A stretch of DNA of 32,000 bases, taken from positions 39,361-71,360 of the forward strand of contig CAYHAA010000014.1 in assembly GCA_964354495.1 (NCBI GenBank), written 5' to 3'. The stretch comes from an uncultured archaeon. Its GTDB lineage: Archaea > Asgardarchaeota > Thorarchaeia > Thorarchaeales > Thorarchaeaceae. Under the pieces are notes generated by a model. That model had not been told where the DNA came from, ran no database searches, and saw only the letters and a program-made list of their open reading frames with translations. Within the stretch, counting starts at the first letter, position 1. Every line of letters starts with the position of its first letter. Positions 1-6,326 of this stretch are shown piece by piece. The position numbers and the translations under genes are program-made.

Positions 1-2
1 GC

Positions 3-1001
3 CATGCGATTCACTTCTATGCTCTTGCTGCTCCCGACTTCGTCTTTGGTCCCTTTGCTGATCCAGCAGTAAGAAATGTTGCAGCTGTCTTGAAGTATTT
101 GCCTAATGTAGCAGTACAAGCCATCAAGCTAATGGAGTTCGGTCAAGAACTCATTAAGACTGTTGGAGCCAAGGCAATCCACCCAACAACAGCCATCCCC
201 GGTGGTCAACTGACTCCTATGAAGGAGGAGGACCGTGATTACTGGCTTGGCAAAGTTCCTGAGATGCTTGAGAATGTCAATAAGACAGTAGAACTGGCAA
301 AGACTGTTGTCAACGCCTACATTGACGTTGTGACCAAGATCGCTGTTGTCCCGACATACTACATTGGACTGGCGAACAAAGGCGCTCTGGACATCTATGA
401 TGGAACAGTTCGTGTCATGGACCCGAAGGGCAAGATTGTCGCTGACTTCGAGCCCAAAGACTACACCAAGTACTACGGAGAGCACGTATCAGAGCATAGC
501 TATGCAACTCATATCTACTACAAGCCTGCAGGATACCCTGAAGGCATCTGGAGAGCCAACACTCTTGCACGATGCAATGTCGCAGACAAGATGGCAACTC
601 CCCTTGCTGATACGGCACTGAAGGAGATGAGAGGACTTATCGGAAGACCTTCGCACCACACCTTTGCGTATCACTATGCGCGAATAGTGGAGCTGGTGCA
701 AGCTGCTGAGTCGATCAAGAAGCTATTGGAAGACCCAGAGATTGTGAGCACCGATGTGAAGCTCTCAGATGTTGAACCGAAGGCCGGTGATGGTGTTGGC
801 ATTGTAGAGGCTCCACGAGGGACTCTTCTGCATAACTATGTGAGTGATGACAAGGGTATGCTTGTGAAGGCGAACCTTATCGTAGCTACAAACAACAACA
901 TCGCAGGTATTGAGAAGAGCCTCATGGTGGCTGCAAAGCAGATCTTTGAGGACAAGGCTCACGAGAGTCTGAAACTACCTGACCCAATGGTGAAGACCTA
1001 G
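3..1001 (+). CDS. vhuA: Group 3c [NiFe] hydrogenase large subunit (MvhA/VhuA type), 5'-truncated by the window edge; lacks the C-terminal DPCxxC motif
   Basis: The frame is open from base 3 (HAIHFYALAAPDFVFGPFADPAVRNV), upstream of the track start at 90. It carries typical large-subunit motifs (GAKAIHP, YHYARIVE, GVGIVEAPRGTLLHNY, ANLIVATNNN) and ends at TAG 999-1001 with no CxxC. Confidence 0.9.
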   Translation, partial: HAIHFYALAAPDFVFGPFADPAVRNVAAVLKYLPNVAVQAIKLMEFGQELIKTVGAKAIHPTTAIPGGQLTPMKEEDRDYWLGKVPEMLENVNKTVELAKTVVNAYIDVVTKIAVVPTYYIGLANKGALDIYDGTVRVMDPKGKIVADFEPKDYTKYYGEHVSEHSYATHIYYKPAGYPEGIWRANTLARCNVADKMATPLADTALKEMRGLIGRPSHHTFAYHYARIVELVQAAESIKKLLEDPEIVSTDVKLSDVEPKAGDGVGIVEAPRGTLLHNYVSDDKGMLVKANLIVATNNNIAGIEKSLMVAAKQIFEDKAHESLKLPDPMVKT

Positions 1002-1052: not shown

Positions 1053-1205
1053 GTGTCAGAAGAAATCCCTGAAGGAGTACTGAACCTCCTGGAAATGGTG
1101 GTTCGGTGCTATGACTGCTGACTATCATGCGGCGCTCATCTGGTCGTCGTCGACGATGAGGGTCGCGAGATAGTCAGGAAGGAGCTTGTGACCGGCGGCG
1201 GATGA
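1053..1205 (+). CDS. vhuU: VhuU-type selenocysteine-containing small hydrogenase subunit, 50 aa, UGA=Sec at 1119-1121
   Basis: Manual translation from GTG 1053: MSEEIPEGVLNLLEMVVRCYDC(U)LSCGAHLVVVDDEGREIVRKELVTGGG*. It supplies the LNLLEMxxRxYDxULSCxxH segment missing from the upstream large subunit. The UGA falls exactly on the first Ni-ligating Cys position. A GTGA SD-like element lies 6 nt upstream. Confidence 0.88.
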
Positions 1206-1290
1206 AGGCACGGCCCCAAAATCATGGGCCGAGTCTAACACACCCTGCAAAGGTGCGCTGGTCGCACTCCTTCCATCCTTTGTCCTTTTC
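1143..1290 (+). repeat. Copy 1 of a degenerate direct repeat (vhuU 3' end plus 3' UTR)
   Basis: cttgtgaccggcggcggatgaag (1185-1207) and tccttccatcct (1268-1279) recur 1168 nt downstream. Confidence 0.8.
1198..1248 (+). promoter_or_regulatory. Candidate SECIS hairpin overlapping the vhuU stop codon
   Basis: ATGA (1202-1205) is followed by an 11-position helix, AGGCACGGCCC (1206-1216) / GGGCCGAGTCT (1226-1236), with 10 pairs and one A.A mismatch. The loop CAAAATCAT contains an A-run 12 nt after the UGA. The 3' core reads AA rather than the canonical GA. Confidence 0.5.
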
Positions 1291-1369: not shown

Positions 1370-2272
1370 GTGATAGGATTGGATGCTATCGACAAGCAAC
1401 TCTGGATAGAACTAGGTCGGAATTGCCGGCACTCCTACAGGTATCTAGCTGACAAGATTGGGATTAGTTCAAATGCAGTCATGCAACGTGTTGCGAAGTT
1501 GCTGGAAACCGGTGTCATTCGGAAGTGGTATCTGGCATTCCGTCCTGCAATGATTGATGCCCAGTTCGCCTTCATCGAAGTGAAAACGGATGGAAGCCAA
1601 GACGAAGACGGGCTCCTCAAGACCCTTGGCACCAATCCAATGATCTTTTGTCTTCTTCCCTTAACGACTGGAGACTTTGCCCTGCATGCGTTCTACATAG
1701 GCGCCGCCTCTTTGCTTGAATTGACGTCTTTCATTCGTTCCGTGGATGGCGTCATTGATGTCAAAGTGCATCCGACAACAGCCAATGCTGGGAGGAAGAT
1801 GAAGTTGGGACCATTGCACCTGCGGATCCTTCCATGGCTAGCAAGAGACCCGAGGGCGAGCATCTCTGATATTGCTAGGGATTCAGGGCTCACAGCTCGG
1901 AGAGTCAAAAGGCTGGTCGATGAGCTTGTCGAGAGTGATGCGTTTGACTTCTCTTTCGTCTGGAATCCAAACGCTGGAGAAGGTATGGCGTTTATTTCTA
2001 GACTGACATACGATTCCAAGGTAACTCAGCCTGAGGCTATTGACAGAGAGATACGAGAAGTATATCCATTGGAGTACTTCTACTCCCATGTCTCTGCTGT
2101 AGAACCGGTGATTTTCAGTGTATTCATGGTGGATCACCTGTTTGCCATCCAGAACATATCGCGACGACTAAGAAGACTCACTGGCGTTTTGGCACTGAAC
2201 ACGATGATTTACTATTCGGCCACTGTCCTTGATGGCCTTACTCGTGTCAGAATGATGGAGCTACTGTCATAG
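1370..2272 (+). CDS. Lrp/AsnC-family transcriptional regulator with two tandem HTH-RAM units
   Basis: Two AsnC-type HTH motifs, LDAIDKQLWIELGRNCRHSYRYLADKIGISSNAVMQRVAKL and LRILPWLARDPRASISDIARDSGLTARRVKRLVDEL, each followed by a ferredoxin-like ligand-binding segment. Confidence 0.85.
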   Translation: MIGLDAIDKQLWIELGRNCRHSYRYLADKIGISSNAVMQRVAKLLETGVIRKWYLAFRPAMIDAQFAFIEVKTDGSQDEDGLLKTLGTNPMIFCLLPLTTGDFALHAFYIGAASLLELTSFIRSVDGVIDVKVHPTTANAGRKMKLGPLHLRILPWLARDPRASISDIARDSGLTARRVKRLVDELVESDAFDFSFVWNPNAGEGMAFISRLTYDSKVTQPEAIDREIREVYPLEYFYSHVSAVEPVIFSVFMVDHLFAIQNISRRLRRLTGVLALNTMIYYSATVLDGLTRVRMMELLS

Positions 2273-3355: not shown

Positions 3356-3937
3356 CTATTCTGATTTGAGAATTCCTCTAAGAATGACATCGGTCATTTC
3401 AGCAAGAGTGCCCCACCGCTTGCAATTGACCTCGCCTATGAACCAATTGAACATGATATTTGCGAAGATAGTACCAATGAGAGCTCTTACAAGAACCGGC
3501 TCTCTGATATTCCGCATACCCGACTTCACTGCAAAAACATGTTTCATGAATCTTGAATCCATGGGAAAGTTAGTTCTAATTGCTGCAGGAATATGTTTTC
3601 CATCCATTTCAACGAGCTCTACGAAAAAAAGGTTGAGCAGCCCGGGGTCCTTCTGAAGTTCCTTGTTGAGCTGAATGATAGCATTTGTGAGGAGCTCCTC
3701 TGGTGTTTCTCCGTTGACTCCATCGAGAATCTCAAGTATTCTGAACATCGGATGCTTCTCGATAAAGACGGCCTCGAAGATCTCTTCCTTTCCGCGAAAA
3801 TGATTGTATATCGATCCCGCCTTGATGCCCGCCTCTGCTGCGATATCTCTCATGGAGGTGCCTCGAAATCCCCTCTCTCTGAATAGCTTGTAGGCAGATT
3901 CGAGAATGCGTTTCTCAGTTGTAGTATCGGTCTCCAA
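3356..3937 (-). CDS. TetR/AcrR-family transcriptional regulator
   Basis: N-terminal ILESAYKLFRERGFRGTSMRDIAAEAGIKAGSIYNHFRGKEEIF is the TetR HTH. Confidence 0.92.
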   Translation of the reverse strand: METDTTTEKRILESAYKLFRERGFRGTSMRDIAAEAGIKAGSIYNHFRGKEEIFEAVFIEKHPMFRILEILDGVNGETPEELLTNAIIQLNKELQKDPGLLNLFFVELVEMDGKHIPAAIRTNFPMDSRFMKHVFAVKSGMRNIREPVLVRALIGTIFANIMFNWFIGEVNCKRWGTLAEMTDVILRGILKSE

Positions 3938-4862: not shown

Positions 4863-6326
4863 ATGGTGCTGATGAACGGAAATGACTATGTCGAGAGCCT
4901 GAGGAGACGAGGCCCTCTCAAGATTTACCTCCTTGGTGAGAAGATTGAGAACGCAGTCGACCATCCCATAATTCGAGCTTCGATCAATTCGGTCGCTCTG
5001 ACATACGATCTTGCGCATGATCCCGAACACCGTGACCTGATGACTGCGAAATCGAGACTCACCGGGAAAACGATCAATAGGTTCTGTCACCTGCATAGTA
5101 GCGTTGAAGACCTTCAGAAGAAGGTCAAGATGCAGCGTCTGTTGGGTCAAAGATGCGGAACTTGTTTCCAACGCTGCGTGGGAATGGATGCTTTGAATGC
5201 AGTCTTTCTGACGACATACGAAATCGACAAGAAGACAGGAACAGACTATCATCAAAGATTCATACGGTATGCAAAGGAAGCTGAAGCCAAGGATTGGGTG
5301 ATTGATGGATGTATGACTGACCCAAAGGGAGACCGCAGTAAGCGTCCTTCGGAGCAGAGAGACAAAGATGTGTACGTTCACATAGCAGAAGGAACCGATG
5401 ATGGCGTTGTGATGAGGGGCGCCAAGGTTCATCAGACAGGCGCAGTCAATTCTCACGAACACCTCATCATGCCAACACTAGCAATGCGAAATGACGAGAA
5501 GGACTATGCGATTTGTTGTGCAATACCTGCTGATGCAGAGGGTATCACTTACTTCTATGGAAGGCAGTCCAGCGACCTTCGACGGCTTGATGAAAGCACC
5601 GAAGGTGATATTGACTGCGGCAATCCTGTCTACGGCGGTCAGGAGTGCCTTGTTGTCTTCGACGATGTGTTTGTCCCAAACGAGCGAATCTTCATGAATG
5701 GAGAGAACGAGTTCTGCGGTCGCCTAGTTGATTCTTTTGCTGCCTACCACAGGCAAAGCTATGGTGGCTGCAAAGTCGGCGTCGGGGATGTTCTCATTGG
5801 TGCTGCCGCCACTATTGCTGAATACAACGGTGTATCAAAGGCCTCTCATATACAGGACAAGCTTGTAGAGATGACACACCTCAACGAAACACTATATTCG
5901 TGTGGGATAGCCTGTTCAGCTGCCGGAGCTCAAACACCAGCAGGGAACTACTTGGTTGATATTCTCCTAGCGAACATCTGCAAACAGAACGTGACTAGAT
6001 TCCCCTATGAGATTGCCCGACTCCTACAGGATATTGCAGGAGGCCTTTTTGTCACGTGCCCGAGCGCTAAGGAACTCCGCAATCCCGAAACACGAGAGAT
6101 CATTGAGAAGTACTTGGTCGGGGTTGATGATGTCAGCGCGACAGATCGAATCAAGATGTTGAGGCTGATAGAGAATCTCACACTAGGTAGAGCTGCAGTC
6201 GGCTACCTTGCTGAATCGATGCATGGCGCGGGTTCTCCACAAGCACAGAGAATCATGATTGGTCGCCTAAGTAATATTGAGGAGAAGAAGAAACTGGCCA
6301 GGTCCCTCGCCAATATTCGTTGTTAG
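4863..6326 (+). CDS. abfD: 4-hydroxybutyryl-CoA dehydratase / vinylacetyl-CoA isomerase (FAD, [4Fe-4S])
   Basis: Fe-S ligand motifs TCFQRCVGMD and HRQSYGGCK, plus GCMTDPKGDR and ESMHGAGSPQAQ. A GGAGTGA SD lies upstream. Confidence 0.9.
   Translation: MVLMNGNDYVESLRRRGPLKIYLLGEKIENAVDHPIIRASINSVALTYDLAHDPEHRDLMTAKSRLTGKTINRFCHLHSSVEDLQKKVKMQRLLGQRCGTCFQRCVGMDALNAVFLTTYEIDKKTGTDYHQRFIRYAKEAEAKDWVIDGCMTDPKGDRSKRPSEQRDKDVYVHIAEGTDDGVVMRGAKVHQTGAVNSHEHLIMPTLAMRNDEKDYAICCAIPADAEGITYFYGRQSSDLRRLDESTEGDIDCGNPVYGGQECLVVFDDVFVPNERIFMNGENEFCGRLVDSFAAYHRQSYGGCKVGVGDVLIGAAATIAEYNGVSKASHIQDKLVEMTHLNETLYSCGIACSAAGAQTPAGNYLVDILLANICKQNVTRFPYEIARLLQDIAGGLFVTCPSAKELRNPETREIIEKYLVGVDDVSATDRIKMLRLIENLTLGRAAVGYLAESMHGAGSPQAQRIMIGRLSNIEEKKKLARSLANIRC

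What the first reader, a model, noticed from the sequence alone, without database searches (positions are those of the whole stretch)
1104..1139. Atypical active-site motif R-C-Y-D-C-U-L-S-C-G-A-H instead of R-A-Y-D-P-(C/U)-x-x-C
Seen: CGG TGC TAT GAC TGC TGA CTA TCA TGC. The nearly invariant Pro of the L2 motif DPCxxC is a Cys, creating a vicinal Cys-Sec pair, and the Ala of RAYD is also a Cys. Inference: two extra thiols next to the Ni-binding Sec could form a selenenyl-sulfide or disulfide that protects Se from oxidation, gates maturation, or binds extra metal. This could mark a distinct hydrogenase subtype.
Basis: partly seen in the sequence, partly recalled or inferred. Interest (0 to 1): 0.7.

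Follow-up and report, generated by a model that had tools for sequence, protein, structure and literature searches.

The report
Cys-Sec pair in Asgard hydrogenase peptide
The odd Asp-Cys-Sec active-site motif is real and marks the split, selenium-containing hydrogenase of Asgard archaea as a whole, but comparison of many relatives argues that the extra cysteine is a lineage-specific second-shell variant rather than a required partner of the selenium.

Summary
Observation confirmed. Window 1104-1139 reads R-C-Y-D-C-U-L-S-C-G-A-H inside vhuU (1053-1205). vhuU is a 50-codon gene that supplies the C-terminal Ni-binding segment of a split, Hdr-linked group 3c [NiFeSe] hydrogenase in a Thorarchaeota-like Asgard genome.

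The Pro-to-Cys change is neither an error nor unique:
- About 72 distinct vhuU-type sequences from many Asgard genera carry it, using both Cys codons (TGC 58, TGT 14).
- Cys isoforms (D-C-C) carry it too.
- All Asgard VhuA form one clade (support 100), sister to Methanococcales VhuA, whose VhuU keeps D-P-U.
- Bacterial and methanogen relatives are D-P-C or D-P-U.
- A profile search of 1.84 billion proteins found non-Pro residues almost only in Asgard-type peptides.

So it marks a subtype. Evidence against a selenium-specific redox or metal role:
- Cys isoforms retain the Cys.
- Some Sec-bearing Asgard lineages have F, N or P at that position.
- Methanococcales FruA has D-I-U.
- No clade-specific partner Cys exists in VhuA or VhuG.
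- The other Cys (R-C-Y-D) is common in bacteria.

I found no paper that mentions the motif. Verdict: a new, undescribed variant of a known enzyme, of moderate interest. The function of the thiol is untested.

The parts
1..1001 (+). 3' two thirds of vhuA. This is the large subunit of a group 3c [NiFe(Se)] hydrogenase that lacks its C-terminal Ni-binding segment. The gene starts 316 nt upstream of the window at G000:C14:39045 and encodes 438 aa.
   Evidence: Pfam NiFeSe_Hases. Best NCBIfam hit is VhuA NF041785 at 503.7 bits. L1 motif R-I-C-G-I-C with C64/C67, plus E16 and R378.
1053..1205 (+). vhuU: 50-codon selenopeptide gene (GTG start, TGA stop) that supplies the L2 motif and a 21-residue C-terminal extension.
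   Evidence: Translation. Best NCBIfam hit is VhuU NF041786. Matches the solved 27-aa methanogen VhuU chain 9sfi_M and the MvhA C-termini. Orthologues in relatives start with ATG at the same place.
1104..1139 (+). L2 active-site motif R-C-Y-D-C-U-L-S-C-G-A-H, the subject of the finding.
   Evidence: Conserved across Asgard vhuU.
1116..1118 (+). Cys22 codon (TGC) at the position that is Pro in canonical D-P-C/U.
   Evidence: Ungapped alignment to R-A-Y-D-P-C. TGC 58 / TGT 14 among 72 distinct sequences.
1119..1121 (+). UGA read as selenocysteine, the terminal Ni ligand.
   Evidence: Aligned to the first L2 Cys, with similarity continuing on both sides. tRNA-Sec is present in the genome. A SECIS-type hairpin lies downstream.
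1202..1238 (+). Asgard-type SECIS hairpin. Its AUGA (1202-1205) contains the vhuU stop codon, the stem-loop spans 1206-1236, and it is followed by AA.
   Evidence: Fold. AUGA-plus-hairpin occurs in 59 of 76 distinct Sec-type vhuU 3' contexts with compensatory changes, and in 0 of 4 Cys-type contexts. Described by Mariotti 2016, PMC4989117.

Best explanation
vhuU encodes the selenocysteine-bearing C-terminal active-site peptide of a split, heterodisulfide-reductase-linked group 3c [NiFeSe] hydrogenase (VhuD-VhuG-VhuA-VhuU behind hdrCBA genes) in a Thorarchaeota-like Asgard archaeon. Sec23 and Cys26 complete the Ni-Fe site together with Cys64 and Cys67 of VhuA. The D-C-U motif is a Pro-to-Cys substitution that arose on the stem of the Asgard Vhu clade, after that clade separated from the Methanococcales VhuA/VhuU lineage (D-P-U). 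Purifying selection keeps it in both Sec and Cys isoforms. Inferred: the residue sits immediately after the C-cap of the helix that carries R-x-Y-D. It most likely acts as a second-shell or packing residue. Losing Pro frees a backbone NH next to the Ni ligand and leaves a small side chain. It is probably not an obligatory redox or metal partner of the selenium. The second Cys (R-C-Y-D) is an ordinary variant of group 3c enzymes.
For: Operon and family. An AF2 model of the read-through VhuA-VhuU has pLDDT 86 and its best fold match is MvhA 5odc_F (TM 0.94).
Sec decoding: tRNA-Sec, and a SECIS hairpin present in Sec-type but not Cys-type genes.
Clade marker: every Asgard split VhuA falls in one clade (100), sister (82) to Methanococcales VhuA. 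Only 5 state changes are needed on a 110-row tree.
Motif counts: RCYDCU 36, RCFDCU 6, RCYDCC 7 and others in 61 loci. About 60 bacterial or methanogen relatives are all D-P-C/U. In a global search, 76 of 80 full motifs are D-P-C, and the non-Pro cases are almost all Asgard-type peptides.
Selection on the amino acid: TGC 58 / TGT 14.
Independence from Se: true Cys-codon D-C-C peptides and a fused R-G-Y-D-C-C enzyme.
Not obligatory: D-F-U, D-N-U and D-P-U Sec lineages are nested in the clade, and FruA has D-I-U.
No clade-specific partner Cys in VhuA or VhuG.
Normal maturation genes are present.
Against: No coordinates could be inspected, so the orientation of the Cys22 side chain relative to Ni, Se or the L1 cysteines is unknown. 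Retention of Cys specifically, rather than Ser or Ala, over deep divergence (VhuA identity down to about 55%) suggests that the thiol itself matters. When position 22 is F, L or N, position 19 is never Cys. This could hint at a C19-x-x-C22 unit in the main lineage. No biochemical data exist for any Asgard hydrogenase.
Confidence: 0.6

Rival explanations
1. Redox switch or protection. On oxidation, or in the free peptide before assembly, Cys22 forms an eight-membered selenenyl-sulfide with Sec23 (a vicinal disulfide in Cys isoforms), as in the Gly-Cys-Sec-Gly end of thioredoxin reductase. This would shield the Ni ligand from irreversible over-oxidation.
For: The vicinal Cys-Sec pair is conserved under purifying selection. 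TrxR chemistry is a precedent (PMC10779653). A Cys-Sec pair in HdrA of the methanogen complex has been proposed as a thiol-selenol relay (PMC13518236). A free 50-aa peptide exposes a reactive selenol before docking (inference).
Against: Sec-bearing lineages exist with F, N or P at this position. In a Sigyn-like genome the Cys isoform has D-C-C while the Sec isoform has D-F-U. Methanococcales VhuU and deltaproteobacterial Sec enzymes work with Pro. U-x-x-C already offers an internal partner. A Ni-bound Se is not free to form the ring.
Confidence: 0.2
2. Extra metal site or maturation aid. C19-x-x-C22 next to U23-x-x-C26 forms a tandem motif that transiently holds Ni or Fe (or Zn), or helps the separate peptide receive the metal from the Hyp machinery.
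For: C-Y-D-C plus U-L-S-C is present in the majority lineage. The split architecture requires the peptide to be recruited during cofactor insertion (inference).
Against: Position 19 is A, N, S, I or G in several D-C-U lineages, and it is Cys in many bacterial D-P-C enzymes, so the two Cys vary independently. Standard HypA, HypD and HycI genes are present. Methanococcales split VhuU lacks both Cys.
Confidence: 0.1
3. Constraint at the RNA level. The codon before UGA is kept for Sec-insertion context or for an mRNA hairpin, not for the protein.
For: Strong codon bias surrounds the UGA: CTA follows it in 53 of 72 sequences. An earlier scan note reports a hairpin that starts at the Sec codon (not tested here).
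Against: Cys is kept in Cys isoforms that have no UGA and no SECIS. Both TGC and TGT are used.
Confidence: 0.04
4. Assembly or base-call artefact, or drift private to this genome.
For: None found.
Against: The same motif appears in dozens of independent assemblies from NCBI, ENA and Logan.
Confidence: 0.01

Closest known systems
Methanococcales VhuA/VhuU, the F420-non-reducing [NiFeSe] hydrogenase. Solved in the M. maripaludis Hdr-Vhu-Fwd super-assembly (PMC13518236); the 27-aa PDB chain 9sfi_M, labelled only 'F420 non-reducing hydrogenase subunit', matches its VhuU, but I did not confirm that this entry belongs to that paper.
   Same: The large subunit is split into VhuA plus a peptide of about 45-50 aa. 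Sec replaces the first L2 cysteine. VhuD and VhuG are partners and the enzyme is Hdr-linked. It is the sister clade in the VhuA tree.
   Different: Methanococcales have R-A-Y-D-P-U and a methanogen-type SECIS. The Asgard enzyme has D-C-U, a eukaryote-like SECIS that overlaps the stop codon, several clade-specific VhuA replacements (R150M, K275T and others) and a 20-aa VhuA tail. Its scores fall below the NCBIfam equivalog cut-offs.
Asgard (Lokiarchaeota) VhuU selenoprotein: Mariotti et al. 2016, PMC4989117; Huang et al. 2024, PMC11227280
   Same: Same gene family, same SECIS type including the stop codon inside AUGA, and the same operon partners.
   Different: Those papers describe the motif only as a Sec or UxxC site. 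I found no mention of the Pro-to-Cys change or of its distribution.
MvhA of the Hdr-Mvh complex (5odc_F) and other fused group 3c/3d large subunits
   Same: Best structural match of the modelled VhuA-VhuU (TM 0.94). Shares the L1 motif, E16 and the catalytic Arg.
   Different: Those are a single polypeptide, all-Cys, with D-P-C.
Thioredoxin reductase C-terminal Gly-Cys-Sec-Gly redox centre
   Same: Adjacent Cys and Sec residues.
   Different: In TrxR the pair lies on a flexible C-terminal tail and cycles as a selenenyl-sulfide. Here the Sec is an internal metal ligand next to a helix cap. There is no evidence of redox cycling.

Membership tests
Group 3c (Mvh/Vhu-type) [NiFe] hydrogenase | Large subunit with N-terminal L1 motif R-x-C-G-x-C-x-x-x-H and the proton-relay Glu | tested here: met
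   R-I-C-G-I-C-P-I-P-H-H with C64/C67, and E16 in R-L-E-G-H.
Group 3c (Mvh/Vhu-type) [NiFe] hydrogenase | C-terminal L2 motif D-P-C-x-x-C-x-x-H | tested here: inconclusive
   D, the two ligand positions (U, C) and H are present, but Pro is replaced by Cys. Pro is not a metal ligand, and other group 3 enzymes also vary here (FruA has D-I-U).
Group 3c (Mvh/Vhu-type) [NiFe] hydrogenase | Encoded with MvhD/VhuD, small subunit MvhG/VhuG and HdrABC | tested here: met
   The upstream genes on the same strand are HdrC-like, HdrB (CCG), two HdrA-like, FlpD/VhuD and Oxidored_q6/VhuG.
Group 3c (Mvh/Vhu-type) [NiFe] hydrogenase | Large-subunit fold | tested here: met
   AF2 model with pLDDT 86. Top PDB matches are 5odc_F (TM 0.94) and 7t2r_D (0.95).
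VhuU selenopeptide (NCBIfam NF041786) | Separate short ORF after vhuA with an in-frame UGA at the first L2 Cys | tested here: met
   ORF at 1053-1205, 52 nt after the vhuA stop, with UGA at 1119-1121.
VhuU selenopeptide (NCBIfam NF041786) | Score above the curated equivalog cut-off | tested here: not met
   VhuU scores 54.5 bits against a cut-off of 70. VhuA scores 503.7 against 800. It is the best-hitting family but a divergent sister clade.
VhuU selenopeptide (NCBIfam NF041786) | Sec-insertion machinery and a SECIS element | tested here: met
   tRNA-Sec on contig C7. AUGA-hairpin at 1202-1238, conserved in Sec-type genes only. It is of the Asgard type, not the methanogen type (PMC4989117).
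VhuU selenopeptide (NCBIfam NF041786) | C-terminal extension removed by a hydrogenase endopeptidase after the His | not testable with these tools
   A 21-residue extension follows His29, and a HycI-family gene is in the genome. Cleavage itself was not observed.
TrxR-like vicinal Cys-Sec redox centre | Cys-Sec on a flexible, Gly-flanked C-terminal end, free to form a selenenyl-sulfide | tested here: not met
   The pair is internal and flanked by Asp and Leu. It follows a helix cap directly, and the Sec aligns with a Ni ligand.

The most novel reading that the evidence does not exclude
The Asgard Vhu-type hydrogenases carry a built-in thiol next to the Ni-bound selenium (or sulfur). On oxidation it reversibly caps that ligand as a Se-S (or S-S) bond. 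This would be an intramolecular self-protection or activation switch that no other [NiFe(Se)] hydrogenase has. It could help explain how Hdr-linked H2 metabolism persists in Asgard archaea living at redox transitions.
Probability: 0.15. Interest if true: 0.75.

Novelty: new variant of a known kind. Interest (0 to 1): 0.42.

Why it matters
H2 metabolism of Asgard archaea is central to syntrophy models of eukaryote origin, yet no Asgard [NiFe] hydrogenase has been characterised. This work shows that their main Hdr-linked enzyme forms its own clade. That clade has a diagnostic active-site signature (D-C-[U/C] instead of D-P-[U/C]) and several replaced residues that are otherwise invariant. The signature is a simple sequence marker for annotating these enzymes, most of which gene callers miss or truncate at the UGA. 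It also defines a precise mutagenesis target. If the thiol proves redox-active, it would be a new way of tuning a NiFeSe site. If not, it shows that the 'invariant' Pro is dispensable.

Tried and rejected
- Looked for a Cys partner that co-occurs with Cys22. VhuA has none that is clade-wide (partial ones at 162, 297 and 393), and VhuG has none that is clade-specific.
- Looked for VhuA residues that revert in the natural P, F and N variants. None did.
- Searched 5.8 billion proteins for longer, fused D-C-C forms using the peptide as query. None scored (weak evidence). One fused R-G-Y-D-C-C enzyme was found by genome search instead.
- Rfam has no model that matches the SECIS.
- Literature searches for any description of the motif found none.
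- The AF2 model gives secondary structure and confidence only. Coordinates are not exposed, so side-chain distances could not be measured.
- Rejected: sequencing error, a private mutation, and an RNA-only constraint (see rivals).

Full report
**1. What is in the sequence**

One search shows CGG TGC TAT GAC TGC TGA CTA TCA TGC GGC GCT CAT at window 1104-1139. The stretch lies in an ORF that runs from GTG 1053 to TGA 1203-1205. With UGA read as Sec, the ORF gives a 50-residue peptide.

The gene directly upstream ends at 1001. It is a [NiFe] hydrogenase large subunit that lacks its C-terminal Ni-binding segment. The full gene is 438 codons and starts 316 nt before the window. It carries the L1 motif R-I-C-G-I-C (C64, C67), the proton-relay Glu16 and the P-R-G arginine.

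The genes upstream on the same strand are HdrC-like, HdrB (CCG domain), two HdrA-like genes, VhuD (FlpD) and VhuG. NCBIfam names VhuA, VhuU, VhuG and VhuD as best hits, but the VhuA and VhuU scores fall below the equivalog cut-offs.

Ungapped alignment to solved structures places Cys22 on the Pro, and Sec23 on the first ligand Cys, of R-A-Y-D-P-C-x-x-C-x-x-H.

**2. The UGA is a Sec codon**

- The genome holds a tRNA-Sec.
- An AUGA-plus-hairpin begins in the vhuU stop codon (1202-1238). This is the arrangement published for Lokiarchaeota VhuU (PMC4989117).
- Among distinct 3' contexts of Asgard vhuU genes, 59 of 76 Sec-type genes have this AUGA-hairpin, with compensatory stem changes. None of 4 Cys-type genes has it.
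- HypA, HypD and a HycI-type endopeptidase are present.

**3. Organism**

The closest named records are Thorarchaeota / 'Promethearchaeota' (Asgard) MAGs, with VhuA at 79-85% identity.

**4. How widespread the motif is**

- Same-genus genomes (VhuA 82-90% identical) all have R-C-Y-D-C-U-L-S-C-G-A-H.
- A scan of about 185,000 species genomes with a VhuA alignment returned 80 loci.
  - Thirteen were Asgard split genes: 11 R-C-[YF]-D-C-U, one R-I-Y-D-C-U and one R-C-Y-D-P-U.
  - Four were deltaproteobacterial fused Sec enzymes with R-A-Y-D-P-U.
  - About 60 were bacterial or methanogen fused enzymes, all with D-P-C.
- A peptide search of 400 Asgard genomes hit 237, nearly all with one in-frame TGA.
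- A sample of 61 loci across families gave RCYDCU 36, RCYDCC 7, RCFDCU 6, RIYDFU 4, RNFDCU 2 and RAYDCU 2. RNYDCU, RSYDCU, RIYDCU, RSYDNU and RCYDPU occurred once each, as did a fused RGYDCC.
- Nine short proteins from public databases read R-C-Y-D-C-C. Two that I checked are encoded by true Cys codons next to a 438-aa VhuA.
- Methanococcales VhuU reads R-A-Y-D-P-U in three genomes and in PDB chain 9sfi_M.
- Methanococcales FruA (Sec) reads R-A-Y-D-I-U, and FrcA (Cys) reads R-A-Y-D-P-C.
- A profile search of 1.84 billion representative proteins gave 91 hits. Of the 80 hits with a full motif, 76 are D-P-C.
- In that search, the non-Pro cases are Asgard-type peptides plus one D-T-C. The Asgard-type peptides appear as D-C-C, D-N-C and D-L-C. 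They also appear as D-C-W, where callers read TGA as Trp, and as ORFs truncated at ...R-C-Y-D-C.

**5. Phylogeny**

The trees used only the VhuA-equivalent part, so the motif itself did not enter. All Asgard split VhuA form one clade, with support 100 in both FastTree and IQ-TREE. This clade is sister (82) to Methanococcales VhuA and separate from the fused D-P-C enzymes.

Five state changes explain the whole distribution. The D-P-U pair (L050, L170) and the D-F-U group are nested among D-C-U lineages. D-N-U is unresolved near the base. The simplest history is Pro-to-Cys on the Asgard stem, with a few later replacements.

**6. Selection and partners**

- Among 72 distinct nucleotide sequences, Cys22 is TGC 58 times and TGT 14 times. 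Cys19 is TGC 31 times and TGT 33 times. So the amino acid is what is conserved.
- No VhuA or VhuG cysteine is both clade-wide and clade-specific.
- Asgard VhuA differs from other 3c enzymes at positions that are otherwise nearly invariant (R150M, K275T, W271H, F276H, G43F, S70P). These do not change in the P, F or N variants.
- R-C-Y-D-P-C is common in bacteria: 12 of 58 in the tree set and many more in the global hits. Cys19 is therefore not special.

**7. Structure**

An AF2 model of the read-through VhuA-VhuU, with 33 aligned homologues, has pLDDT 86 and pTM 0.88. In model numbering, the helix at 463-476 ends at the Tyr of R-C-Y-D. Asp477, Cys478 and Sec479 follow the helix cap. The extension after the His has low confidence.

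The best PDB matches are MvhA 5odc_F (TM 0.94) and 7t2r_D. Coordinates are not exposed, so I could not measure side-chain distances.

**8. Interpretation**

Shown:
- The motif is real.
- It is under purifying selection.
- It is diagnostic of the Asgard Vhu clade.
- It is independent of Sec.

Inferred: because F, N, L, P and (in FruA) I are tolerated at this position in functional-looking Sec or Cys enzymes, and because no partner Cys exists, the thiol is most likely a second-shell or packing residue and not an obligatory redox or metal partner (confidence 0.6).

A redox-protective Se-S/S-S switch (0.2) or a maturation or metal role (0.1) remains possible. Retention of Cys specifically over deep divergence is the main argument for these alternatives.

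**9. Novelty**

Asgard VhuU, its SECIS and its operon are published (PMC4989117, PMC11227280, PMC11291895). The papers I could search describe the site only as Sec or UxxC, and none mentions the Pro-to-Cys change. I rate this a new variant of a known kind, of moderate interest.

The earlier notes of this scan on the split gene, the SECIS and the Sec locus agree with what I re-derived.

Noticed in passing
L019 (G009), L020 (G006), L022 (G036); L119/L120 (Sigynarchaeota GCA_030587545.2): Several Asgard genomes carry a second vhuA paralogue (60-72% identical) with no vhuU after it. One contig has two divergent vhuA genes with a Cys-type U (R-C-Y-D-C-C) and a Sec-type U (R-I-Y-D-F-U). This resembles the Vhu/Vhc selenium-dependent isoform pair of Methanococcus.
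   Followed up: partly
P0006 / L126 (G345:C63) and P0013: Some Cys-type U peptides replace the terminal His of the L2 motif with Phe (S-C-S-A-F). That His is normally the processing and Mg-site residue.
   Followed up: no
window 1122-1124 and orthologues: The codon after the Sec UGA is CTA in 53 of 72 distinct vhuU sequences. This bias is stronger than amino-acid conservation requires and may reflect UGA context or an mRNA hairpin.
   Followed up: no
L184-L187 (Methanocaldococcus / Methanothermococcus genomes): The Sec isoform of the F420-reducing hydrogenase (FruA) has D-I-U, while its Cys isoform (FrcA) has D-P-C. So loss of the Pro also accompanies Sec in another group 3 enzyme.
   Followed up: no
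VhuA (L006 11685-13001), residues 43, 70, 150, 271, 275, 276 and 417-438: Asgard VhuA replaces residues that are nearly invariant in other group 3c large subunits (R150M, K275T, W271H, F276H, G43F, S70P). It also adds a tail of about 20 residues before the split.
   Followed up: partly
L006 8332-10086 and 10047-10529 (upstream of the window): In this operon hdrA and vhuD are Cys-type, with no internal UGA. They are selenoproteins in Lokiarchaeum and Methanococcus. Only vhuU uses Sec here.
   Followed up: partly
window 1370-2272 (+), 3356-3937 (-), 4863-6326 (+): Three genes follow vhuU: a regulator with two AsnC/Lrp-type HTH domains, a TetR-family regulator, and an HpaB / 4-hydroxybutyryl-CoA-dehydratase-like enzyme.
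   Followed up: no
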